DNA of 64,000 nt, taken from a virus. Lineage: Duplodnaviria; Caudoviricetes. The position numbers were made by a program, and so were the translations under genes. The notes beneath the pieces are model-generated. The model ran no database searches, was not told where the DNA came from, and saw only the letters and a list, made by a program, of their open reading frames with translations. Below are positions 11,317 to 60,262 of this stretch, piece by piece. The first letter of the stretch is position 1. Every line of letters begins with the position of its first letter. The stretch covers positions 10,092-74,091 of the IMG/VR virus record IMGVR_UViG_2933206877_000003; one strand, written 5' to 3'.

Positions 11317-13203
11317 TCAGGCCGGCATGAGTTGCCGGATGGCGGTTGTGATCCGGCGGGCGAGGTAGGCGTGGCCGGCGTCGTTGGGGTGGACGGAGTC
11401 GGCGCCGATGTAGCCGGCCTGGTTGGCGCTGTTGATGAACGCGCCGTGGGTGGCGACGAGGTTGCCTGCGCTGTCGTAGCAACTGCCGGTGAGAGGGCTG
11501 ACGAACGGGATACCGGCGCCTGCGGCTGCCGTTCGCAGGGTCGCGTCCGTGTTCTGGAGTGACGCCGCTGGGCTGGCGGTCGGGGACCAGCAGCCGAGGA
11601 CGTACATCTGCGCGGACGGCAGTCCGGTTTTGATCGTCGCGTACAGGCTGTCGGCCGCCGTCTTGATCGCGGGCTGGCTGGCGCCGTTGTCGTTGTAGCC
11701 CGCCCAGATGATGACCCGGTCCGGGGCATTGCCGATGACGTCTGTGGCGACGCGGTCGGCGAGGATCGCGTAGGAGCCGGCGGTCACATACCCGGTGCCG
11801 CCGCGGGCCTCGTCCCAGACGTCCGACCAGCCCATCCGGCGGGCGAAGCGCTGCACCCACGTACCAGCGCCGCCGCCCACATTGTTCGAGGAGCCGTCGG
11901 ACAGAGAGTCCCCGAAGAGGACGGTGCGGCCGCCACCCGGGGCGACCGGCCACAATGCCGCGGTCGGTGGGAGGTAGATCCCTCCCAGGGGGACGGTGTA
12001 GAAGTCGAAGCGGACGGTGCGCAGGGCTGCCGAGCCGAAGTCGACCGTCATCAAATGGGTGGAGCCCGCGGTGGTGCCGCCGATCGGCTGCATCGTGTCG
12101 GTGAGCTTGCGGCCGTCGACCGATATCCGGTAGGCCCCCGCGATCTGGTAGTTGAAGCGCAGCTGGAACGCGGAGGCGTCGGTGGTGAACTCCATCGACC
12201 ACACGGCTTGGCTGCTGGTCAGGTTGCCGCGCGTCCACGGGTAGCGGCTGGTGGGGAGTACGTACGTCGAGTCGGGGGTGCCGGTGCCGATCTGGAAGTT
12301 GCCGGCGCCGAGGTAGGTCCACAGGCCGGTCACGTCGGAGCCGCTCAGGGCGACACCGGGTGGCGCCCACTTCACGTAGCCGCTGGTGGGCGTTGAGGTC
12401 TGCGCGACACTGATCGTGGGCGCGGTGCCCGTGTAGACGCTGTCCGCCACGCTGCCGTCCGGCAGGTCGCGGCGACGCCACGTCGTCAGGGGAAGGAACC
12501 GGGCGGCCGCGTACGCACGGTCGCCGTGTGGGTCCGCAGCCGCTGCGTGCGAGCTGACCTTGTTCGTCGCGTCCGCGGCTGCCGCGGACTGGGCTGATGT
12601 CGCCGCGCCGCTCGGATCCGCCTGTACGTCCGAGGCGCTGAGATTGACGATGCCCTGCTTGCCGTTGACCGAGGTGACCAGGTTGGTTGCCGGGTCGCCC
12701 GGGTCACCCTTCGGGCCCGTCGCACCGGTGGCACCGGCCGCTCCGGCGGCCCCCGGCGCCCCCGGAGCGCCTGGCGGGCCCTGAGCCCCGGTGGCACCGG
12801 CAGGTCCGGGCTCCCCCGGGTCTCCCTTGGGCCCGACGACGGGCACGAAGTTGCCCTGGAGCGGGTCGGGGACGACGACGTCGGCCAGGACGACGGTCGG
12901 CGCGCCTTTCGGGAGAGCGATGTAGCGGACCCAACCGGGCGCGTTGGTGAACATCGCCGTCACGCGATACGTCCACCCCGTCGGTGACATGCCGGTCACA
13001 TCGTTGGCGGCGAGCTCCACGGAGAACTCGCCGTCCACCAACGGCACCTCGACGGCACCGCCGAGGAGGACCTGCTGCCCGTCCACCGTCACCACGTCGG
13101 GCCCAGCGAACAGGATCCGGCCCTCAAACGGCGTCCCGTCCGGCAGGCACAGCCGCCGACCGGAGGAGACCGTCACCCCGTCTACACCAGCAGGCAGTGG
13201 CAC
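11317..13203 (-). CDS. Collagen-repeat protein with C-terminal SGNH/GDSL hydrolase
   Basis: Gly-X-Y run (GPKGDPGEPGPAG...); SGNH blocks GDSL, GGTG, GYND, DSVHP. Confidence 0.8.
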   Translation of the reverse strand: MPLPAGVDGVTVSSGRRLCLPDGTPFEGRILFAGPDVVTVDGQQVLLGGAVEVPLVDGEFSVELAANDVTGMSPTGWTYRVTAMFTNAPGWVRYIALPKGAPTVVLADVVVPDPLQGNFVPVVGPKGDPGEPGPAGATGAQGPPGAPGAPGAAGAAGATGATGPKGDPGDPATNLVTSVNGKQGIVNLSASDVQADPSGAATSAQSAAAADATNKVSSHAAAADPHGDRAYAAARFLPLTTWRRRDLPDGSVADSVYTGTAPTISVAQTSTPTSGYVKWAPPGVALSGSDVTGLWTYLGAGNFQIGTGTPDSTYVLPTSRYPWTRGNLTSSQAVWSMEFTTDASAFQLRFNYQIAGAYRISVDGRKLTDTMQPIGGTTAGSTHLMTVDFGSAALRTVRFDFYTVPLGGIYLPPTAALWPVAPGGGRTVLFGDSLSDGSSNNVGGGAGTWVQRFARRMGWSDVWDEARGGTGYVTAGSYAILADRVATDVIGNAPDRVIIWAGYNDNGASQPAIKTAADSLYATIKTGLPSAQMYVLGCWSPTASPAASLQNTDATLRTAAAGAGIPFVSPLTGSCYDSAGNLVATHGAFINSANQAGYIGADSVHPNDAGHAYLARRITTAIRQLMPA

Positions 13204-36844: not shown

Positions 36845-37473
36845 GAGGGTGTCTCTCCTGGAATCTCGAGTAGGGATTCGACGGCGCGTACGGCTTCGAG
36901 GTCGAGGACCTGGCGCAGGAGCGCCGCCTGTTCGTCGGTGAGGCGGGGCCGGGCTGCGGCGCGCACGGGGCGCTTCATCAGCACGGGCACGTCGAGGCGG
37001 ATGCCGAGCACGGCGCCGTCGGGGCCGTAGGCGATCTCGTAGCCGGACGGGGTGATGTACCAGGCTTCGTACGCCTCGGCGGGCTTTCCGGCGCGCGATG
37101 CCTGCACGGCGACCAGGGCGGCCACGGCGGCGGGCAGCGTCGTCCGGTACCGGTCCATCGAGCCGTTCAGCATCGGGCAGACGGCGACGGCGTAGTCCAG
37201 GCACTCGGGGTGCATGCCGGGCTCGTCGACGTAGCCGACGCCGGCGTCCGCCGGGCGCACGACCAGCCCGATGCGGCGGCCGAGCGGCTGGCGGCAGAAC
37301 TGGCAGGCCCGGTGCGTGATGCACTGGATTCGGCGGATCGGGAAGTTGATCCCGAAGGACGGGCGGCCGTCGAACCAACCAGTGATCCACGGGACGGCCA
37401 GGCCGCCGCGGCGCGGCAGGGCTGCGGCACGCGCGGGCGGTCGGACCGCTCGTGAGCGGCGGGGCTTCGGCAT
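36841..37473 (-). CDS. Cys/His-containing hypothetical protein
   Basis: GLAVPWI..CQFC...MHPEC.....CP. Confidence 0.7.
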   Translation of the reverse strand: MPKPRRSRAVRPPARAAALPRRGGLAVPWITGWFDGRPSFGINFPIRRIQCITHRACQFCRQPLGRRIGLVVRPADAGVGYVDEPGMHPECLDYAVAVCPMLNGSMDRYRTTLPAAVAALVAVQASRAGKPAEAYEAWYITPSGYEIAYGPDGAVLGIRLDVPVLMKRPVRAAARPRLTDEQAALLRQVLDLEAVRAVESLLEIPGETPS

Positions 37474-37568
37474 GGTGGGATCTCCAGGTGGGGCCCCGGC
37501 GGCGGGAAGCGCGCGCCAGCGCGCCGAAGCGCGGGTCGCGTGTCCGGCCGCCCGGGCGGTCTAGCCGG

Positions 37569-37997
37569 TCAGCTCTCGGCGATCTCACGGAGGCGGTGCA
37601 GCGCCGTGGAGGCGTCGGCGTAGAAGAACGTCTCGCCGGGCTTGAGACCGAGGACCTCTGCCCCAACCTGGGCGATCAGGCGGCGCTCCTCGCCCTTCTG
37701 CGCGAACGTGCGCACGGTGACCGTCTCATCGGTGCCATCGGGCTGTCGCACCAGGACTTGCGTCCTGCTGTCGTCGTCGAGGGCGACGATGGTCCAGCCC
37801 GCCGCGCGGGCAGCCCATCCGGCGGCGCACAGCGTCGTCCCACATTCGGGCTCGGCGTCCGGAGGCAGCTGTCCAGCGTCGGGGAAGTAGACCCAGTCCT
37901 CCATGTCGAAGGCGTGGGGCTGTGCTTCGATCGCGTCGAGGACTGCCGACGCGACGGCGGCGGGCGTGGCGGGGTACTTCGTGACCGTGTCGGTCAT
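37569..37997 (-). CDS. Hypothetical protein
   Basis: CGTTLCAAGWA motif, GGAG RBS. Confidence 0.7.
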   Translation of the reverse strand: MTDTVTKYPATPAAVASAVLDAIEAQPHAFDMEDWVYFPDAGQLPPDAEPECGTTLCAAGWAARAAGWTIVALDDDSRTQVLVRQPDGTDETVTVRTFAQKGEERRLIAQVGAEVLGLKPGETFFYADASTALHRLREIAES

Positions 37998-38029
37998 GGC
38001 AACTCCATTACCGTGGAGAGGCGTTGGAG

Positions 38030-38102
38030 TGGTGCTGGCGGGACTCGAACCCGCGACCCAGGACTTATAAGATCCGCGCTCTGCCAACTGAGCTACAGCA
38101 CC
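38030..38102 (-). tRNA. tRNA with UAU anticodon (nominal Ile, reads AUA); CCA not encoded
   Basis: Cloverleaf GGTGCTG-TA-GCTC-AGTTGGCA-GAGC-G-CGGAT-CTTATAA-GTCCT-GGGTC-GCGGG-TTCGAGT-CCCGC-CAGCACC-A. Confidence 0.88.
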
Positions 38103-38199
38103 GTGTTATTGAGTTGTGGGGTGGGCCGCGCCTCGCAGAGCGGGGCGGGAGCGCGGGGCGCGGCCCTGGCGGCGGTAGATCGCTACGGCCGCCGGTCTG

Positions 38200-39405
38200 T
38201 CAGGCCCGGGTGAGCAGCATCAGCCGCTTGTGGGCCTTGTTCTTCATGTCGTCGTCGGCGCCTTCGAGGGCGGCGGTGGCGCGGGCCATCTCCTCGGTCA
38301 TGGTCTTGCCGGGGCGGCGTGGGGCGACGTGGTCGAGGTAGCCGGTGATGGCCCGCTCGGCGGCGTAGGCGGTGCGGCCGACGCGCTCGGTCTCGGTGCG
38401 GAAGACGTCGTCGAGGGCGCCGAGCCGTGCGGCGTGGTTGTTCTTGGTCCTGTCGGTGGCGTCGTCGTCGAGGGGCCACAGATCGGCGATGACCTTGCGG
38501 AAGTCGGTGACGGCCATGTCCGTCCGGGCGAGCGCGGTCTCCTCGGCGGCGTACTTCTCGAAGTAGTCGAGGGACAGACCGAGGGTGCGGCGGGCTTCCT
38601 TGATCTGGTCGACGGCGCCTGCGGTGTGGCGGACGGCCCAGCGGGTGTGTGCGTCGCGTACGGCGAACCGCTCGGTGTTGGCGCAGACGGGGCGCCACGG
38701 GGTGACGACGCACTGGAAGGTGCCCTGCCCGGTGTGGTCGTTCATGACGGCCACGTACGGGACGATCGTGTCGTTGATGCCGTCCGCCTCGATCGCGACC
38801 GTTTCGGGGAGCCGGATGGAGATGAACACCCGGCGACCGCCCTTGATGACTCCGGCGGACTCCCAGACCACGTCGTAGCGTCCGACCAGTTCCTGAAGGA
38901 ACTCGAAGCCCTGCCGGTTCTGGATCGGCTCGTATCGGCGGCCGACGACGCCGAGCGCGGCGCCGCTGTCCTCCCGGACCGTGTGGAAGTGGTCGGAGTG
39001 CTCGCGGAGTTCGCCGCCCCACTGGTACAGGGCGGGGACGGTGGTGACGGTGAAGTCGAGACCGCCCGCGCGGAGCACCGTGTCGATGTCGGTGATGCCG
39101 CCGGGGATGATCTGACCGAGGCCGTGCCAGGCCGGGGACGACGCGTACAGGGCGATCGTGCCGTCCGCCCGGGAGTCGAGGCCGTGGTTCGCGAGGATCG
39201 CGTCGATGGCGCCCTGTGCGTTCCGGGAGACGGTGAACCGCTCGCCCCGGTCCCAGCCGGTGAGTACCTCGTACTGCTCGCCACCGACGAGGCGGATCTC
39301 GCCCCGGTCGATGCGGGCCTGGAACGCCTGCTCGCGGCTTCGCGCGGCGTCGATCTGGTGGGTCTTCTCGTCGGCGAACGCGGTGTTGACGTCGGTGATG
39401 GTCAC
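38200..39405 (-). CDS. DUF932-family protein
   Basis: PAWHGLG, LGVVG.RY.PIQN, ESAG...GGRRVF, RPVCANT, RHT. Confidence 0.88.
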   Translation of the reverse strand: MTITDVNTAFADEKTHQIDAARSREQAFQARIDRGEIRLVGGEQYEVLTGWDRGERFTVSRNAQGAIDAILANHGLDSRADGTIALYASSPAWHGLGQIIPGGITDIDTVLRAGGLDFTVTTVPALYQWGGELREHSDHFHTVREDSGAALGVVGRRYEPIQNRQGFEFLQELVGRYDVVWESAGVIKGGRRVFISIRLPETVAIEADGINDTIVPYVAVMNDHTGQGTFQCVVTPWRPVCANTERFAVRDAHTRWAVRHTAGAVDQIKEARRTLGLSLDYFEKYAAEETALARTDMAVTDFRKVIADLWPLDDDATDRTKNNHAARLGALDDVFRTETERVGRTAYAAERAITGYLDHVAPRRPGKTMTEEMARATAALEGADDDMKNKAHKRLMLLTRA

Positions 39406-39436
39406 GGTGACCCCTTCGGATGGTGGGTGTCTGTCG

Positions 39437-39511
39437 TGGTGGGCCCGGTCGGAGTTGAACCGACGACCGGCGGTTTTAAGGCGCCTGCTCTGACCGCTGA
39501 GCTACGGGTCC
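39437..39511 (-). tRNA. tRNA with UAA anticodon (bldA-type anticodon) on a short-variable-loop body; CCA encoded
   Basis: GGACCCG-TA-GCTC-AGCGGTCA-GAGC-A-GGCGC-CTTAAAA-CCGCC-GGTC-GTCGG-TTCAACT-CCGAC-CGGGCCC-A-CCA. Confidence 0.85.
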
Positions 39512-39560
39512 GGGTGGCGGCCGGGCCGGGGGGGGATGAGCCCGGCCGCCGGTCTGTTGC

Positions 39561-39806
39561 TCAGCCGCAGGCGGCGGAGCGGGTGAGGGATTCGCGGCGG
39601 ACGTGGTGCGGGCCGGGCCGTTCGCCCCAGGGGTCGCCGAGCGCGAAGCGGGCGTCCGGCAGGCCGAGGACGTCCATCGCGCGGCAGATCTGGCAGGGGC
39701 ACGGGATGGCGAGCCAGAGACCGTGCAGGGACCGGATGGACCCGTGGTAGATGACCAGGTCTCCCGGCTCGATCAGATCGAGTGACCGGATCAGCGTGTC
39801 CGACAT
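39561..39806 (-). CDS. Hypothetical protein
   Basis: GDLVIYHGS...CPCQIC...HVRRES. Confidence 0.65.
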   Translation of the reverse strand: MSDTLIRSLDLIEPGDLVIYHGSIRSLHGLWLAIPCPCQICRAMDVLGLPDARFALGDPWGERPGPHHVRRESLTRSAACG

Positions 39807-39831
39807 GACTCCCCCTCGGGCGATCGGTGGG

Positions 39832-40191
39832 CTACGGGTGGTTGCGGACGGGTCCGTTGCCGGGCGTCCACCGCATGGCGTCGCCGCTGACGAACGTGGC
39901 CCGGTGGGGACGCACTGTCGGTGCGGCGGGGATGTGGCGGTGTCCGGCGGTGCGGCCGTATCGGTCCCACGCGGCCCTGAGAACGTGGGTCTCTTCCGGC
40001 CGGTAGGCCATGACCTTGCGGAATCGGCCGTTGATCCACCGGAAGGCTCGGCCGGGTTCACGCCGGTAGCTCTGCCGGTAGATCTCGGCGGCGACTCGGC
40101 CGAGCGGAGAGCCATAGCGCCAGTCGGCCGGGAGACCCCGCTGAACGAGGTATTCGGCGACCGTGATTCGGCGGCTGACCAGCACAGACAT
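39832..40191 (-). CDS. Basic hypothetical protein
   Basis: GGGAGG RBS; first gene after promoter. Confidence 0.65.
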   Translation of the reverse strand: MSVLVSRRITVAEYLVQRGLPADWRYGSPLGRVAAEIYRQSYRREPGRAFRWINGRFRKVMAYRPEETHVLRAAWDRYGRTAGHRHIPAAPTVRPHRATFVSGDAMRWTPGNGPVRNHP

Positions 40192-40233
40192 GGCTTCCCT
40201 CCCCGGTTCGGAGTCCCTTGCTTCTCTTCCAGG

Positions 40234-40271
40234 ATAGGCCGAGAATGCGGCCTATGGAAGGGGTAAGTCAA
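40234..40271 (-). promoter_or_regulatory. Promoter with palindromic operator over the -10 box
   Basis: TTGACT-18nt-CATTCT; ATAGGCCG-N6-CGGCCTAT brackets the -10. Confidence 0.6.
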
Positions 40272-40305
40272 AGAAAGTACGAGACATTCCGAGAGGGTCT
40301 TTGAC

Positions 40306-40629
40306 ATGACGACACTGCACGACAGGCCGGGTATCTGGCCTACGGAACATGCGATGATCAACGCCATGGCCCGCAGCAACTACGAACCGCCCGACGATGC
40401 GGCCGAACTTTTCGCCCGGATCAAGAGGGCTCACGACACCCTCCGGGAACTGCGCGGCCCGCTCCAGGAGATGGCCGTCCGCGAGATGCGGGAGGGCGGG
40501 GCCACCGTCGGCGACCTCGCCCGTCTCACCGGCTACGACCCGGAGAAGTACCGGCTCATGGCCAGGGCCGCCGGCGTCGAGCGCCGGCGGCCGCCGACCC
40601 GGGGCCAGGTCAGCGACTCAAGCGACTGA
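40306..40629 (+). CDS. Small HTH regulator
   Basis: ATVGDLARLTGYDPEKYRLMAR; divergent from tRNA cassette. Confidence 0.7.
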   Translation: MTTLHDRPGIWPTEHAMINAMARSNYEPPDDAAELFARIKRAHDTLRELRGPLQEMAVREMREGGATVGDLARLTGYDPEKYRLMARAAGVERRRPPTRGQVSDSSD

Positions 40630-40640
40630 CCCTCCCAACA

Positions 40641-41207
40641 TCAGCCGACATGGTTCGCCGTCAGCAGGTACAGCCGGGTTCCCTCGTAGCGGGCCGGCTG
40701 CCCAGTCTCGCCGTCCTCACAGGCATCGTTGATGCACCAGGCGCGCGGCCGGTCATCGTCCGCGCGGCCATACACGGTCCGCTGCCCACACGTCAGGCAG
40801 AGGGCGTGCCGGAAGTGCACGCTGGGCCCGCGCAGGCCCAGCACGGTGAGCACCGTGCCGTGCCACCGGCTGACCAACTGCCGTACCTCCGGCTCACGAC
40901 CAGCATTCTCGGCGCCCGGCGGAATCGCGGGCAGAGCCCGGTACCAGGGCTGCGTGTGCGGCGAACCGCGCAGCTCGGCGTCCAGCTGCACAGCCTCGCT
41001 CTTAATGCGCTGCGACCACGAGACGGCCTCCAGTGACGTCGGCGGTCGGGATCCCGGTGGCGCGTGGCCACCGACGGCTGGCTGCCGGGTACGGAGGCCG
41101 AGCGTGTCCAGCCGATGGAGGAGCCCGGGGCCGTCGTCGCCGGGGTGCTGCTCGTCGCCGGTGTACCGGCTGATGAGGTCGGCGACCAAGCCGTCAAGCG
41201 TCTGCAT
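40641..41207 (-). CDS. Hypothetical protein with C-terminal Zn ribbon
   Basis: PGSRPP motif, CLTC...CINDAC. Confidence 0.65.
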   Translation of the reverse strand: MQTLDGLVADLISRYTGDEQHPGDDGPGLLHRLDTLGLRTRQPAVGGHAPPGSRPPTSLEAVSWSQRIKSEAVQLDAELRGSPHTQPWYRALPAIPPGAENAGREPEVRQLVSRWHGTVLTVLGLRGPSVHFRHALCLTCGQRTVYGRADDDRPRAWCINDACEDGETGQPARYEGTRLYLLTANHVG

Positions 41208-44124: not shown

Positions 44125-44495
44125 CAGCTTTCTCCGCTCGCACGCATCAGGCGCTCGTAGATGGAGGCGCCGCTGAGCCGGTCCTCGATGTGGCCGGACC
44201 GGCCGCGTCCGGGGTCGGTGAGGCCACTGATGGCGCGGGCCACGGCGAGAGCGGGGCACGGCAGGTTGAACAGGTTCCGCCGGCTGTCGCAGTAGCCGCA
44301 CTCGCTGTCGGGCAGGTGGATGACGGCTGCGTCCTCCAACCATCGGATCAACGGCTCACGAGCGCCCAGCAGGACCCGGATCATCTCCAGCAGTTCGCGA
44401 CTGTTGCAGTCGACGAGGAAGCCATCGCAGTTCCGATCGTCGCGGAGCCGGGCCGCGGCCGCGCGCAACTCCTCGGCTGGGTTGGTAGTGGTCAC
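44124..44495 (-). CDS. Hypothetical protein
   Basis: PAEELRAAAARLR...ALAVARAI. Confidence 0.6.
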   Translation of the reverse strand: MTTTNPAEELRAAAARLRDDRNCDGFLVDCNSRELLEMIRVLLGAREPLIRWLEDAAVIHLPDSECGYCDSRRNLFNLPCPALAVARAISGLTDPGRGRSGHIEDRLSGASIYERLMRASGES

Positions 44496-46213: not shown

Positions 46214-46470
46214 CGGTTGTACTCCCCTGCTTCGGCACGGTCGATCAGGAGCTGGATGTAGGTGCGGGCCTTGCAGAGGTCCTCGATGCCGTTCTTCTTC
46301 CGCCAGCGGAGCAGGTATTTCAGGGCGTTGCCCTCGTAGAAGTCCAGGCTGAAGGCGTTGATCACGTCGAAGGGCTGCATTCCGGTGCCGCGGTAGTGGT
46401 CCGGTGTCCAGTCCTTGGGCCCTGGCGCCAGCGGCGTGCTGGCGGCTTTCACGGTCTTCTCATCGGCCAT
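46210..46470 (-). CDS. DUF3310-family protein
   Basis: PDHY...GNALKYLLR..KKNGIEDL.KA..Y. Confidence 0.85.
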   Translation of the reverse strand: MADEKTVKAASTPLAPGPKDWTPDHYRGTGMQPFDVINAFSLDFYEGNALKYLLRWRKKNGIEDLCKARTYIQLLIDRAEAGEYNR

Positions 46471-47975
46471 CAGGCGATTCCTTCCGGCTGGAGCGAGCTC
46501 GTGCGCTGGCGCGGGATGGGCACGGTGAGGGTCGTCTCCGTCTCGGGGTCGAGCAGCTTCGCGACGGGGATCTGCACGGTGTCGTCGTCCAGCAGGCCGG
46601 CGGGTGGGCTCACGGCAGCCGGCTCCATGAGGGCGACCTCGGCGCCGTTCTGGCGGGTGCCCCAGCCTGTGCGGGCGCAGGTGGCCATGCCGTACCAGCG
46701 CATGGCGCGCAGGACGGTCCAGCCGGCGACCACCGCGAGAGGCATGAGCAGCCAGGTGACGAGCCGGCCGCCGAAGGCCTCGTCGTCCCGGGCAATGGAC
46801 AGATACCGCAGACCCTGCGCCCAGCCGATCAGGAACGGCACGACCAGGAAGCTGGCGGGCGGGGTGTGACCGTACGCGGCGGGCTCGACGACCAAGAGCC
46901 ACCCGAGGACGGCGGTGGACAGGGCGACCTGGAACCAGCGCAGCAGGTGGGCCCAGTACGCCCAGCTGGTCAGCGGCAGGTACCGGAACCGCCACACGGA
47001 GCGGATGGTGGAGCCGCGCATCCAGCGCAGGTACATGCGTAGGAAGTGGGATGGCCGCTCCGGAAGGGCGGTGAAGACGATCGCGGTCGGCTGTTGCACC
47101 GTGCGGCCGCCGAGCAGCGCGTACAGGGTGAGTAGGGAGTCGTCGGAGAACATGACCGGGCGGCCCATGAAGCGCTCGTTCAGGTAGCCGTCGAGGTTCT
47201 CCCGGATGATGGCGGCCCGGTAGGCGGCCAGCGGTCCGGAGTTCACGAGGACGGCGCCCATCGCGGACAGTGCGGAGCGATCGGTGAGCTGCCCAGTCGT
47301 GAACCACAGGTCGGTGATGCGGGTCAGGAGGTTCGCACGGTGGTTGGTGGCGAGGACGACCCCGGCGACGGACTGGACCCGGGCCTGCGCGAAGGGGAGC
47401 AGCAGCTCCTCCAGAGCGTTCGGGGCGAGGCTGGAGTCGGAGTCGACGGTGACGTACACGTCCGCTTGCGGGCTCGCTGTGACGGCGGCGGCCTGAGCGT
47501 GGCGCTTGCCCTGGTTGTCGGTTCGCTGCCACGTGGTGACGATGTCCGCCGCGGCCGCCGCCTTCGTCCACCAGGAGCGGACGGCGCTGTAGTCGCCGCT
47601 GGACGAGCCGTCATCGACGACGTGCACGGAGTCGGGGCGGCGGGTCTGGGCGAGGATGCTCTCCAGGCCGAGCCGCAGGTAGCCGGGGTCCTCGTTGTAG
47701 ACGGGCAGCAGGATGGCGACATGCAGGGCGCCGAGCTGCCGGCGGGACCGCGGAGTGGTACGCCGGGGACGCTCCCAGTGGTACATCACGGTCTGCGTGA
47801 TGAGCAGCAGGAACGTGACGCCCCAGACGGCGGCGAGCCGCGAACTGGTGGGGCCGCCGTACTGGGCGGCGGCTATGCCGTGCTGGGCGGCCCACCCTGC
47901 GGCGCCGGTCAGGCATATCGCGCCGGTGAGCAGGACGCCGGAGCGGTGCCGGTGCGCGGTCAGGGGTCTGGTCAC
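46470..47975 (-). CDS. Membrane GT2 glycosyltransferase, hyaluronan synthase/NodC-like
   Basis: PVYNE, VDDGS, GKRHAQ, TVDSD, SGPLAAYR, SDDSLLT, YLRWMR; N- and C-terminal TM helices. Confidence 0.88.
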   Translation of the reverse strand: MTRPLTAHRHRSGVLLTGAICLTGAAGWAAQHGIAAAQYGGPTSSRLAAVWGVTFLLLITQTVMYHWERPRRTTPRSRRQLGALHVAILLPVYNEDPGYLRLGLESILAQTRRPDSVHVVDDGSSSGDYSAVRSWWTKAAAAADIVTTWQRTDNQGKRHAQAAAVTASPQADVYVTVDSDSSLAPNALEELLLPFAQARVQSVAGVVLATNHRANLLTRITDLWFTTGQLTDRSALSAMGAVLVNSGPLAAYRAAIIRENLDGYLNERFMGRPVMFSDDSLLTLYALLGGRTVQQPTAIVFTALPERPSHFLRMYLRWMRGSTIRSVWRFRYLPLTSWAYWAHLLRWFQVALSTAVLGWLLVVEPAAYGHTPPASFLVVPFLIGWAQGLRYLSIARDDEAFGGRLVTWLLMPLAVVAGWTVLRAMRWYGMATCARTGWGTRQNGAEVALMEPAAVSPPAGLLDDDTVQIPVAKLLDPETETTLTVPIPRQRTSSLQPEGIA

Positions 47976-48142
47976 TGCTCTCCCGCCCCTCGGCCGTGGC
48001 GGAAGCCGAGGCGGATGCAGATGGCGCCGACGGTGACGACGGCCAGGGCGGCGGCGAGCAGCCACCAGCCGGTGACGGCGACTCCGCCGACGACGAGGAC
48101 TCCGGCGGTGCCGGTGCGGGCGAGCTGTGCGTTGTCGGACAC
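47972..48142 (-). CDS. 56-aa LAXTG sortase-signal-like membrane mini-protein
   Basis: MSDNAQ-LARTG-hydrophobic stretch-RLGFRHGR; stop overlaps GT start. Confidence 0.7.
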   Translation of the reverse strand: MSDNAQLARTGTAGVLVVGGVAVTGWWLLAAALAVVTVGAICIRLGFRHGRGAGEQ

Positions 48143-58110: not shown

Positions 58111-59021
58111 TGCTCTTCACCGCCCTCGGCGTCACGTGCGCCAGAGCCGGGCTGGGCAGCGGCCGGCCAGGATGCGGCGGCCGCCGGGTGCTCGCCATCG
58201 CCGGGCTGGTCGTCGCGGGAGATGACGGTGCCCCGGATGACGGGCGGCACAGTGTGCGCGTCGTCGAGGTCGTCGTCGTGCTGGATCAGCTCGGCCAGCT
58301 CGGTCGACGTGGGCACGACCTTGCGGAGCCGGAGCACCGCACTCTTGGCCCACATGGCGTCGAAGTCGGTGTGCCAGGCCGAGTCCCTTTTGCCGTTGCT
58401 CTCGGCCTTCTTGTACGCCTTGGAGAACTTGTTGCGGATGCCCTCGGCCTGTGACCGGTTCAGGATGATCACCTGGGAGCGGCGGCCGTCGATCCACGCG
58501 AAGGCGTAGGCCAGGATGACCTTCCCTCGCTCCTCGTCGGTGAGGTCCACGCGCGGCTTGTGGTAGAAGTCGCGCGGGCTCGGCTCGGTCGGGGTGTAGT
58601 CCCAGGCGTCGTTCTCCCGAACCCAGCCGAAGTGCACCGAGTCGACGCGCGGGTGTCGGTACATCAGCTCGATGTAGCCCTCGTACATCGGCTGGAAGGT
58701 GGCCACGCCGCTGTAGGGGACGATGGCGGCCTGGCGGCCGTCGGGCTCCAGCCCGAACCGTGCGCAGGCGAGCAGCGCGGTATGGATGGACGCCGGGGTG
58801 CAGTTCTTCAGGTCCTCCATGCGGGCCTGCGCGACGGCCATGAAGTGCGCTCGGTCCACGTGCCGGGGCAAGGCGTCCGTGAAGTAGGTCTCGCGGCGTA
58901 GCAACCACTGTCGGGCGCTGTCGTTCACGGCGAGGTCGGTAACCGGCTGGTGGTCCGGCTGAGGCTCGTCCGCACCGGCGGCGGCCTTCACGCGGTCCTT
59001 CAGGCTGTCGGGCATGGTCAT
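58107..59021 (-). CDS. recT: RecT-family ssDNA annealing protein
   Basis: CTPASI...GLEP...IVPY...YEGYIEL...W.TDFDAMWAKS. Confidence 0.92.
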   Translation of the reverse strand: MTMPDSLKDRVKAAAGADEPQPDHQPVTDLAVNDSARQWLLRRETYFTDALPRHVDRAHFMAVAQARMEDLKNCTPASIHTALLACARFGLEPDGRQAAIVPYSGVATFQPMYEGYIELMYRHPRVDSVHFGWVRENDAWDYTPTEPSPRDFYHKPRVDLTDEERGKVILAYAFAWIDGRRSQVIILNRSQAEGIRNKFSKAYKKAESNGKRDSAWHTDFDAMWAKSAVLRLRKVVPTSTELAELIQHDDDLDDAHTVPPVIRGTVISRDDQPGDGEHPAAAASWPAAAQPGSGARDAEGGEEQ

Positions 59022-60262
59022 CCTTCCGAGGGCACGCGGAGCACGCGGGCCCGGTACTTGCGGTAGGTCTCGGGGTGCTCCTGGGCGAGCCGCTCGGTGT
59101 CGACGGCTGGGACCAGGTGGGTGTACTGGGCGGCGAGGTCCGGCTCGGCGTCGCGTAAGCGAGCGGCAGCGAACTGGCCGTTGCGGCGCCAGGTGTAGGC
59201 CGGGCGGCCGCCGATGGTGGCGACCTCGGCCTCCCCGGCGTTGGCCCGCAGTTGGTTTTCGGCCTCGGTGAGCTGGTCCCCGAGGTAGGCGATCTCTTCC
59301 TTCAGTTCGCGACGGCGCTGCTTCAGGAGCATCGTCTCGACCGGATCGACCTCGACGGTGGCTTCCTCGCGGGTGTCCCACAGCCGGGCGAGCAGCTCGG
59401 CCGTGGCCTGCGAGCCGTCCGGCTTCGGCGGGACGCCGGCGAGTACGTGGTTGTGCCAGAACCGGTCGACGGCGTCGGCGAGCAGGGCGCTCAGTTCCTC
59501 GTCGCGCTCCAGGCGGAACCACGTCAGGTCGTCATCGATGAGACCGGCGACGTACGCGCACCGGTAGCCCGTGACGGTCAGGTACCAGTGGGCCTGGATC
59601 GCGGGCCGATCCGGTGCCTGCTCGCCGTGCCAGCCCTCGATGCGGGCGGAGCGCCAGGTACGGGACTTGCACTCCAGTACGCCCAGCTCGTCACGGGCCT
59701 GGTCGTCGGGCGCGACGGTGAGCCGGTCGGGGTTGGCGATCCAGTGCGGGTGGTCGACATGCTGGAGGGTGCCCGGCGAGTCGATGACCGTAAGACCGGA
59801 GTCCTCGGCGAAGAACTCGGCGACGAGGCCCTCCAGCCGGTGGCCGCGCCGGGCGGCTCTCTCCAGCCGCGCATTGTGGCGCTCTGAGGCCTGGCCGGTC
59901 TTCTCCAGCCAGACATGCAGCGGTCCGCGGTAGGCGTCCATGCCGAGGATGGCGGCCACGTCCGAGCCGCCGGCACCACCGGCCCGCGCTTCACGCCAGG
60001 CTTCCTCGGAGGCTCCAGCGGCGAGCAGTAGCCGCGCGGTCGGGGCGACCGGGTCGGAGACGCGGATGGTCGTCTCTGACCCGGTCGCGGTCCCGGACGG
60101 CGCAGGCAGGGTCTCGGGGGCCGGGGTCAGTCGTCGTGACGGCCCCTCTCCTGCCTTCGTTCCCGTTGCGGCCGCGAGCAGCTCCGCTGCGGGTGGCGTT
60201 GACGCCGTCCGGGAGGTGTGGGACTCGCCCGGAGCAGGCGGGGTCTCAGGTACCGAGTTCAC
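59018..60262 (-). CDS. YqaJ/lambda-exonuclease-family recombination nuclease (repeat-derived N-terminus; start uncertain)
   Basis: GGSDVAAILG, GHRLE, ANPD, LECK, QAHWY. Confidence 0.9.
   Translation of the reverse strand: MNSVPETPPAPGESHTSRTASTPPAAELLAAATGTKAGEGPSRRLTPAPETLPAPSGTATGSETTIRVSDPVAPTARLLLAAGASEEAWREARAGGAGGSDVAAILGMDAYRGPLHVWLEKTGQASERHNARLERAARRGHRLEGLVAEFFAEDSGLTVIDSPGTLQHVDHPHWIANPDRLTVAPDDQARDELGVLECKSRTWRSARIEGWHGEQAPDRPAIQAHWYLTVTGYRCAYVAGLIDDDLTWFRLERDEELSALLADAVDRFWHNHVLAGVPPKPDGSQATAELLARLWDTREEATVEVDPVETMLLKQRRRELKEEIAYLGDQLTEAENQLRANAGEAEVATIGGRPAYTWRRNGQFAAARLRDAEPDLAAQYTHLVPAVDTERLAQEHPETYRKYRARVLRVPSEG

What the first reader, a model, noticed from the sequence alone, without database searches (positions are those of the whole stretch)
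39437..39511. Phage tRNA with the bldA anticodon (UAA) on a non-leucine-type body
Seen: full cloverleaf with encoded CCA, anticodon loop CUUAAAA, only a 4-nt variable loop (GGUC), an A3-C70 mismatch and a C-C mismatch closing the anticodon stem. Established: in Streptomyces the rare UUA codon is read only by the developmentally important bldA tRNA-Leu, and bacterial tRNA-Leu has a long variable arm. Inference: this tRNA may bypass bldA control, insert a non-Leu residue at UUA codons (rewiring host TTA-containing regulators), or act as a decoy for anticodon nucleases.
Basis: partly seen in the sequence, partly recalled or inferred. Interest (0 to 1): 0.88.

Follow-up and report, generated by a model that had tools for sequence, protein, structure and literature searches.

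The report
Mobile-element tRNA reading the bldA codon
A Streptomyces prophage carries a real, conserved, short-armed tRNA that reads the rare developmental codon UUA, and most of its relatives bear the mark that makes a tRNA accept alanine instead of leucine.

Summary
Window 39437-39511 (- strand) is a tRNA (ARAGORN; Rfam 57.9 bits) with loop CUUAAAA (anticodon UAA), a 4-nt variable loop, A3.C70 and C31.C39 mismatches, A73 and an encoded CCA.

The genome is a 74-kb siphovirus-type prophage. All 29 chromosomal relatives of the neighbouring DUF932 gene lie in Streptomyces.

I found ten more distinct relatives of this tRNA, on prophages, a linear conjugative plasmid and metagenome contigs. Most sit near a DUF932 gene and a tRNA-Ile(UAU). 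Of the 11 sequences, 10 keep the CUUAAAA loop, five stem pairs show compensatory changes, and 9 carry G3.U70 with A73. In a Streptomyces host that pair occurs only in the three tRNA-Ala.

The elements carrying the tRNA have almost no TTA codons, and all five host genomes tested keep bldA.

Best reading (about 0.45): a selected, bldA-independent UUA reader that acts mainly on host messages. Most of the family is predicted to carry alanine. The window's A3.C70 copy has an open identity. Its phage's one solid TTA codon sits at a Phe/Leu site.

Nothing about charging or expression was shown. I rate it a new variant of a known kind.

The parts
39437..39511 (-). Class-I tRNA, anticodon UAA (reads UUA, probably also UUG). 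A3.C70, C31.C39, 4-nt variable loop, A73, encoded CCA.
   Evidence: ARAGORN; Rfam tRNA 57.9 bits; cloverleaf is the MFE fold; member of an 11-sequence family with 5 compensatory pairs
38200..39405 (-). DUF932 / phrog_1221 gene (401 aa) lying between the two tRNAs. Genes of this family recur near the UAA tRNA on otherwise unrelated elements.
   Evidence: Pfam PF06067 1.4e-59; phrog_1221 6.4e-72; linkage seen
38029..38102 (-). tRNA-Ile with anticodon UAU (reads AUA), the usual partner of the UAA tRNA
   Evidence: ARAGORN; Rfam 68.4 bits; partner tRNA found 300-450 nt or one gene away
39516..39550 (.). 11-bp perfect inverted repeat (39516-39526 with 39540-39550) just 5' of the tRNA on the - strand. 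Possibly the terminator of the upstream gene or a processing hairpin.
   Evidence: Read directly from the sequence; not tested further
59156..59158 (-). The only solid in-frame TTA codon of the phage: codon 369 of a RecE/YqaJ-like exonuclease gene (59018-60262, - strand)
   Evidence: Pfam YqaJ 3e-23 and phrog_434 1.6e-80; the column is Phe in 116 and Leu in 3 of the 119 other homologs; TTC in 23 and TTG in 1 of 24 DNA loci

Best explanation
The feature is a working tRNA gene carried by a temperate Streptomyces siphovirus. It belongs to a small family of class-I tRNAs that travel on Streptomyces prophages and plasmids, usually near a DUF932 gene and a tRNA-Ile(UAU). Its conserved CUUAAAA loop makes it a reader of UUA (by wobble probably UUG too), the codon that the host otherwise reads only with the class-II bldA tRNA. 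The loop also contains A36-A37-A38; that this suits i6A-type modification at A37 is recalled, not tested. The carrying elements have almost no TTA codons and their hosts keep bldA. So the tRNA is not a codon supplement for the element's own genes. It adds a second, bldA-independent reader that would act mostly on host TTA messages (inferred). Nine of the 11 family members have G1-C72, G2-C71, G3.U70 and A73, the acceptor-stem set that alanyl-tRNA synthetase recognises without touching the anticodon. Those members are therefore predicted to put alanine at UUA (inferred from established identity rules; not shown). The window's copy has A3.C70 at that pair, so its amino acid is open. My split for this copy: alanine through a non-Watson-Crick 3:70 pair about 0.3, leucine about 0.25, phenylalanine about 0.1, poorly charged or uncharged about 0.35.
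For: It is a real tRNA. Family of 11 distinct sequences: 95.2% of stem cells paired, 5 pairs with changes on both sides, and 0 of 500 shuffles reach either value. One of those compensatory changes is C50-G64 to U-A in the window's own T stem. The CUUAAAA loop is kept in 10 of 11. A pattern that ignores the anticodon and base 70 found the same 4 loci in 401 Streptomyces genomes as the pattern that demands the anticodon; all 4 have UAA and U70. The 3:70 pair is G.U in 9, G-C in 1 and A.C in 1 of 11. The divergent member L285 changed 2:71, 30:40 and 51:63 by double substitutions yet kept G3.U70, A73 and the loop. In host genome G004 only the 3 tRNA-Ala among 60 distinct tRNAs have G3.U70, and tRNA-Ala(CGC) has an acceptor stem differing from the family's at one pair only. 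[quoted passage not shown] TTA counts are low: 1 solid and 1 possible in G000, 0 on the coding strand of the complete relative G001 apart from one doubtful end ORF, and 1 in 13,547 annotated codons of the plasmid arm. A canonical bldA gene is present in 5 of 5 carrier hosts. The window copy scores 57.9 bits, within the family range of 47.5-61.9.
Against: No expression, processing or charging data exist, and no RNA run holds this DNA. The window's own copy lacks G3.U70 and has two stem mismatches. The minor bacterial Ala elements G4-C69 and G20 are not met, although host tRNA-Ala(CGC) also has C4-G69 and the host Ala tRNAs have U20. G3.U70 is not unique to Ala among phage tRNAs: 14 of 569 non-Ala tRNAs in a biased IMG/VR sample have it, though only 2 of those have A73. 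Eight of the nine G.U members (all but L285) share an identical acceptor stem, so part of the conservation may be shared descent. The phage's one solid TTA codon lies where homologs have Phe or Leu, never Ala. That fits Leu or Phe better than Ala for this copy. E. coli LeuRS does not need the long variable arm, so leucine charging cannot be excluded on architecture alone.
Confidence: 0.45

Rival explanations
1. It is a leucine-accepting tRNA of unusual short-armed build: a phage copy of the bldA function that lets TTA codons, such as the one in the phage's exonuclease gene, be read at any growth stage.
For: Anticodon UAA and A73. In E. coli, A73 and core tertiary contacts define Leu identity, not the long arm or the anticodon, and variants lacking the arm stay active (PMC9976931 passages). 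The phage's TTA codon sits in a column where Leu occurs in 3 of the 119 other homologs and as TTG in 1 of 24 DNA loci.
Against: The A15-U48 and A20a elements named for E. coli are absent; the window copy has G15 and C20a. Nine of 11 relatives carry the alanine determinant, which AlaRS would use whatever else is present. There is no similarity to the host bldA tRNA beyond generic tRNA features. TTA is not enriched in the elements.
Confidence: 0.2
2. The window's copy is a decaying or inactive member. After losing G3.U70 it picked up mismatches and no longer works in translation.
For: There are two stem mismatches, A3.C70 and C31.C39. Relative L038 has G3-C70 and a 6-nt loop and looks degenerate. 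Thirteen of the 16 related loci that keep the tRNA-Ile(UAU) lack the UAA tRNA. Fold energy is no better than shuffles.
Against: Its Rfam score equals that of the G.U members. The loop is intact and CCA is encoded. Its T stem carries a compensatory double change, which implies continued selection for the fold. The 31:39 pair is also mispaired in L062.
Confidence: 0.15
3. It inserts phenylalanine at UUA. It would be a tRNA-Phe(GAA)-like molecule with G34 changed to U, making TTA a synonym of TTC for the phage.
For: The only matches to a family member at E <= 1e-6 in the phage collection are tRNA-Phe(GAA) of Streptomyces phages JustBecause and Kela. In the plasmid collection they are another family member and a tRNA-Phe(GAA). 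These tRNA-Phe share the loop apart from base 34, and the JustBecause/Kela copy shares the family's T arm (the plasmid tRNA-Phe differs by one T-loop base). A35, A36 and A73 are three of the four conserved Phe elements. The phage's TTA codon sits where 116 of 119 homologs have Phe.
Against: G34 is missing. The acceptor stem is unlike the tRNA-Phe examples. Whole-length similarity is as high or higher to phage tRNAs labelled Met(CAU), 0.79-0.84, so the parent isotype is unresolved. Leu is tolerated at that column.
Confidence: 0.07
4. It does not act in decoding. It would be a decoy or spare for host tRNA-cleaving defences, or some other RNA role.
For: There is no direct evidence. The idea rests on the lack of TTA codons in the elements and on position among early or establishment genes (DUF932, ParB, SSB).
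Against: The anticodon loop, the T and D arms and the acceptor end are all kept as in decoding tRNAs. The partner tRNA-Ile(UAU) has no host counterpart to stand in for: none is among the 60 host tRNAs.
Confidence: 0.05

Closest known systems
bldA tRNA-Leu(UAA) of Streptomyces
   Same: Same anticodon and codon (UUA), same A36-A37-A38 context, same host genus. A copy of bldA is present in all 5 carrier hosts tested.
   Different: bldA is an 84-nt class-II tRNA with a long variable arm and C3-G70. This one is 75 nt and class I, sits on a mobile element, and its family carries G3.U70.
Natural Leu-codon-to-alanine tRNAs of yeasts (CUG in a nuclear code change; CUU/CUA in Ashbya mitochondria)
   Same: A tRNA with alanine identity joined to a leucine anticodon. 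I saw only titles and abstract starts in the listing (PMC4937558, PMC3874161).
   Different: Those are chromosomal or organellar, with the whole genome adapted to the new meaning. Here the tRNA is on prophages and plasmids of a bacterium that keeps its normal Leu reader. The result would be ambiguity at a rare regulatory codon, not a fixed code change.
tRNAProX of Streptomyces and Kitasatospora (Pro identity with Ala, Asn or Thr anticodons)
   Same: Naturally encoded bacterial tRNAs whose body and anticodon disagree, in the same genus (PMC11415595 passages).
   Different: Those have proline identity and other codons. A linked dedicated synthetase is recalled, not seen here. No synthetase gene was noticed beside the present tRNAs, and the Pro features are absent (G1-C72 here).
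G3:U70 transplantation experiments
   Same: Placing G3.U70 in tRNA-Phe, tRNA-Tyr or others makes them alanine acceptors or double acceptors (PMC9976931 passages). The family looks like a natural version of this.
   Different: Those are engineered. The window copy has A.C, a pair not named in the passages I read; C-C, C-U and G-A mispairs were named as active in vivo.
Ordinary phage tRNAs that supply rare codons
   Same: Phage-borne, co-oriented with phage genes, and paired with a second tRNA for another rare A-ending codon (AUA).
   Different: The codon is not enriched in the carrying elements. Typical phage tRNA-Leu(UAA) genes are class II, 83-89 nt: 11 of 15 in an IMG/VR sample.

Membership tests
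tRNA (Rfam RF00005) | Cloverleaf sequence and structure profile above the gathering score (29 bits) | tested here: met
   57.9 bits over model positions 1-71; ARAGORN call
Bacterial tRNA-Leu (class II) | Long variable arm | tested here: not met
   4-nt variable loop. The host Leu tRNAs with anticodons cag, gag, taa and tag are 84-86 nt.
Bacterial tRNA-Leu (class II) | A73 discriminator | tested here: met
   A73 in all 11 family members
Bacterial tRNA-Leu (class II) | A15-U48 Levitt pair and A20a in the D loop (E. coli set, PMC9976931 passages) | tested here: not met
   D loop AGCGGUCA gives G15 and C20a; variable loop GGUC ends in C48. Whether Streptomyces LeuRS needs these is unknown.
AlaRS substrates (bacterial alanine identity) | G3.U70 wobble pair | tested here: not met
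   The window copy has A3.C70. Nine of 11 family members have G3.U70.
AlaRS substrates (bacterial alanine identity) | A73 and G2-C71 | tested here: met
   L285 has U2-A71.
AlaRS substrates (bacterial alanine identity) | Minor elements G4-C69 and G20 | tested here: not met
   C4-G69 and U20 here. Host tRNA-Ala(CGC) also has C4-G69, and the host Ala tRNAs have U20.
AlaRS substrates (bacterial alanine identity) | Actual charging with alanine | not testable with these tools
   Needs aminoacylation assays or mass spectrometry
tRNA-Phe | G34, A35, A36, A73 (PMC9976931 passages) | tested here: not met
   U34 replaces G34; A35, A36 and A73 are present
Phage tRNAs that supply the phage's own rare codons | The cognate codon is used by the phage more than by the host | tested here: not met
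   1 solid plus 1 possible TTA in 17,846 called codons of G000. None on the coding strand of G001 except one doubtful end ORF. One in 13,547 codons of the plasmid arm. The host baseline was not measured here.
tRNAProX mistranslating tRNAs | Canonical tRNA-Pro elements joined to a foreign anticodon | tested here: not met
   G1-C72 and no G35/G36. The host Pro tRNAs start C1 with G72.

The most novel reading that the evidence does not exclude
Streptomyces prophages and conjugative plasmids carry a dedicated tRNA that reads the developmental codon UUA as alanine. That would be a natural, horizontally mobile sense-codon rewriting device. It would free host TTA-gated regulators from bldA control at little proteome cost, because the codon is so rare. 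The window's A3.C70 copy would be either a variant that keeps alanine identity through a non-Watson-Crick pair, or a lineage that switched identity.
Probability: 0.35. Interest if true: 0.9.

Novelty: new variant of a known kind. Interest (0 to 1): 0.75.

Why it matters
UUA and bldA form the textbook case of a codon used as a developmental switch: antibiotic production and sporulation regulators carry TTA codons. A mobile element that brings its own UUA reader could override that switch in any lysogen or plasmid host. It would also be a bacterial parallel to the yeast Leu-to-Ala code changes. Two practical points follow. Standard annotation labels these genes tRNA-Leu from the anticodon alone. 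And strains carrying them may express TTA-containing gene clusters differently. My paper searches found no description of such a tRNA. They cover only the held library, and supplements were not read.

Tried and rejected
Close DNA relatives among isolated phages: none (megablast of window 37000-41000).

Major head protein: the nearest isolated phages are Mycobacterium phages at 61-64% identity. This first made me doubt the Streptomyces host; one search settled it.

IMG/VR pattern scans: these gave mostly unrelated tRNAs sharing the D or anticodon arm. Only the L001/L011 contig is a family member.

Parent isotype: whole-length comparison with 60 host tRNAs gave 0.72-0.80, with no clear winner. 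Comparison with 677 host plus phage tRNAs gave Met(CAU)-labelled and Phe tRNAs at 0.78-0.84. I dropped the claim that the family descends from tRNA-Phe.

First idea, that A3.C70 and G3.U70 reflect a conserved wobble geometry: weakened by L038 (G-C), then revived only at family level. For the window copy it stays open.

Promoter and terminator scan of 37800-40500: 0 promoter-like sites and 2 terminator-like sites on the wrong strand. Not informative.

RNA evidence: no RNA holder listed. Read laying was not used, because the one holder is a DNA run that may be the source of this DNA.

Codons of the three Leu-bearing exonuclease homologs (P0049, P0065, P0105): not obtained. Searches found only relatives at 42-55% identity.

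Correction: an earlier count said tRNA-Ile(tat) lies beside DUF932 in 19 of 32 loci. Recounting one search gives 15 of 32, plus one ambiguous call (L035).

Gene calls are my own GC3-based calls, not a gene finder. TTA counts depend on them and on the strand filter.

Full report
THE OBSERVATION

ARAGORN finds three tRNA-like genes in the window. One lies at 39437-39511 on the - strand with anticodon taa. Rfam's tRNA model scores it 57.9 bits, E 1e-10, over the full model.
- acceptor stem GGACCCG/CGGGCCC with A3.C70 unpaired;
- anticodon stem with C31.C39 unpaired;
- loop CUUAAAA;
- a 4-nt variable loop;
- A73 and an encoded CCA.

The minimum-free-energy fold is the cloverleaf, but its energy is not better than shuffles (z -1.0). 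So the covariance score and the homologs carry the case.

A second tRNA, Ile(UAU), lies at 38029-38102 (68.4 bits). The third ARAGORN call, 'Ala(cgc)' of 94 nt at 44363-44456, has no Rfam match, and I take it as false.

CONTEXT

The window is bases 10092-74091 of a 74,091-bp virus record. Of my 80 GC3-based gene calls, 71 lie on the - strand, as do both tRNAs. Tape measure, large terminase and major head protein are recognisable.

On the - strand the order is: tRNA(UAA), a 401-aa DUF932/phrog_1221 gene, then tRNA-Ile(UAU).

Isolated phages give no close DNA match. The head protein is nearest to Mycobacterium phages at 61-64% identity.

The host is settled by the DUF932 gene. All 29 chromosomal loci that encode relatives (52-86% identity) are Streptomyces, and two IMG/VR proviruses are relatives as well. 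One of them, G001, is a complete 68.6-kb provirus syntenic with this genome. The exonuclease of this phage is on record on a 907-kb contig, so the phage is integrated.

A FAMILY OF SUCH tRNAs

Among the window, the two proviruses and the 29 chromosomal loci, tRNA-Ile(UAU) stands beside DUF932 in 15 of 32, plus one ambiguous call. A UAA-type tRNA stands there in 3 of 32: the window, L001 and a degenerate L038.

A pattern for this D arm plus the CUUAAA loop found 4 loci in 401 Streptomyces genomes. A pattern that leaves the anticodon and base 70 free found exactly the same 4. In that sample, then, scaffold, anticodon and U70 go together.

Further members came from two other sources:
- a 264-kb linear conjugative plasmid, NZ_CP108729.1;
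- three high-GC metagenome contigs, plus a more divergent one, L285, at 62% GC.

These carriers are not one phage type. The four chromosomal loci share only 0-2 genes with this phage. They do hold phrog_1221 or phrog_1362 and ParB-like genes. The plasmid has DUF932 upstream of the tRNA and a tRNA-Ile(UAU) 370 nt downstream. L285 has a phrog_1221 gene 4.5 kb away.

An alignment of the 11 distinct sequences gives these counts:
- 95.2% of stem cells are paired.
- Five pairs show changes on both sides; 0 of 500 shuffles reach either value.
- One such change is in the window's own T stem (C50-G64 to U-A).
- The loop CUUAAAA is kept in 10 of 11.
- The 27:43 pair is mispaired in 8 of 11.

The variable region is 6-7 nt and hypervariable in every member except the window copy.

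Rfam scores run from 47.5 to 61.9 bits, with the window at 57.9. This is a maintained gene family.

THE 3:70 PAIR

Where the window has A3.C70, nine of the 11 have G3.U70, one has G-C (L038, which also has a shortened loop) and one has A.C (the window). All 11 have A73 and G1-C72; ten have G2-C71.

L285 changed 2:71, 30:40 and 51:63 by double substitutions but kept G3.U70.

In one Streptomyces host genome (74 Rfam tRNA matches, 60 distinct ARAGORN sequences), G3.U70 occurs only in the three tRNA-Ala. [quoted passage not shown]

Review passages state three relevant things:
- G3:U70 is sufficient for AlaRS recognition and charging (PMC11415595).
- The bacterial Ala set is A73, G2-C71, G3.U70, G4-C69 and G20 (PMC9976931).
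- Some tRNA-Ala mutants with mispairs at 3-70 (C-C, C-U, G-A) remained active in vivo (same passages).

AlaRS does not read the anticodon. Hence the G.U members are predicted to be charged with alanine while reading a leucine codon.

Cautions apply:
- G4-C69 and G20 are not met, though the host's own Ala tRNAs also lack one or both.
- In a biased sample of 569 non-Ala phage tRNAs, 14 have G3.U70 and 2 of those have A73. The mark is rare but not unique.
- Eight of the nine G.U members (all but L285) share an identical acceptor stem, so they are not independent.
- No parent isotype can be named from overall similarity.

WHAT IT IS FOR

The usual reason for a phage tRNA, feeding the phage's own rare codons, does not fit. 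This genome has one solid in-frame TTA (exonuclease codon 369) and one possible TTA outside the window, among 17,846 called codons. The complete relative G001 has none on its coding strand apart from a doubtful end ORF. The 50-kb plasmid arm has 1 in 13,547 annotated codons. A paper on UUA in Streptomyces notes that phage genomes of this genus usually lack the codon altogether (PMC10732093 passages).

All five carrier hosts tested keep a canonical bldA-type gene at 90-100% identity, so the mobile tRNA adds to bldA and does not replace it.

The reading that remains is a second, bldA-independent UUA reader that acts on host messages. This is an inference. I have no data on expression and no usable promoter signal.

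THE WINDOW'S OWN COPY

This copy is the outlier, with A3.C70, C31.C39 and a 4-nt variable loop. Its score and its compensatory T-stem change argue against simple decay.

Its phage's one solid TTA codon lies in a column that is Phe in 116 and Leu in 3 of the 119 other homologs. In 24 DNA loci the codon there is TTC 23 times and TTG once; the 24 loci represent 22 distinct places, because two were fetched twice.

A hydrophobic residue is therefore expected there. That sits better with Leu or Phe than with Ala.

I therefore keep the amino acid of this copy open. My split is Ala about 0.3, Leu 0.25, Phe 0.1, poorly charged or uncharged 0.35.

COMPARISON WITH WHAT IS KNOWN

It works like bldA at the codon level but is not a member of the class-II tRNA-Leu family.

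At family level it works like the yeast Leu-to-Ala tRNAs (listing only) and like the classic G3:U70 transplants.

In the same genus, body-anticodon mismatched tRNAs are known for proline identity, the tRNAProX, but their features are absent here.

My searches of the held library turned up no description of a phage- or plasmid-borne UAA tRNA with G3.U70. Supplements were closed, and subscription journals are mostly missing.

VERDICT

The thing is a conserved mobile-element UUA reader of non-leucine build. The alanine reading is well grounded for most of the family, but it is untested, and it is doubtful for this copy.

I rate it a new variant of a known kind, with interest 0.75.

Noticed in passing
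window 38029-38102 (-): tRNA-Ile with anticodon UAU (Rfam 68.4 bits). The same kind stands beside DUF932 in 15 of 32 related loci (plus one ambiguous call) and next to most UAA tRNAs. No UAU tRNA is among the 60 host tRNAs of G004. AUA is normally read by a modified CAU tRNA (recalled).
   Followed up: partly
window 44363-44456 (+): ARAGORN 'tRNA-Ala(cgc)' of 94 nt with two acceptor mismatches. It has no Rfam match and lies inside a - strand gene, so it is most likely a false call.
   Followed up: partly
window 59156-59158 (-), in gene 59018-60262: A TTA codon in a RecE/YqaJ-like exonuclease at a position that is Phe in 116 and Leu in 3 of 119 homologs. The closest homologs (79-81% identical) all have Phe, so the change is recent.
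   Followed up: yes
window 39516-39526 with 39540-39550: An 11-bp perfect GC-rich inverted repeat directly upstream (on the - strand) of the tRNA. A similar GC-rich stretch stands upstream of the tRNA in L002.
   Followed up: no
L059:4432-4482: A tRNA remnant made only of an acceptor stem and a T arm (minihelix-like), downstream of that prophage's tRNA-Ile(UAU).
   Followed up: no
L038:2385-2458: A family member with G3-C70 and a loop one base shorter (CUUAAA). If read as the 7-nt loop ACUUAAA, the anticodon would be UUA, which pairs with the stop codon UAA.
   Followed up: no
L117:41-116 (-) and other tRNA loci of genome G004: The host genome holds other odd tRNAs: a 76-nt class-I 'Leu(caa)', and a Cys(gca)/Pro(cgg) pair that share the acceptor CGACGTG and an aberrant T loop.
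   Followed up: no
L277:13498-13571 and L285:2902-2977: Two further class-I UAA tRNAs from metagenome contigs of 62-66% GC. L285 has G3.U70 and A73 and lies 4.5 kb from a phrog_1221 gene. L277 has G3-C70 and G73.
   Followed up: partly
window 11317-13203 (-) and 46470-48065 (-): A tail-fibre-like protein with collagen repeats and a C-terminal GDSL lipase/esterase domain, and a family-2 glycosyltransferase (weak GtrB-like PHROG match) among the early genes.
   Followed up: no
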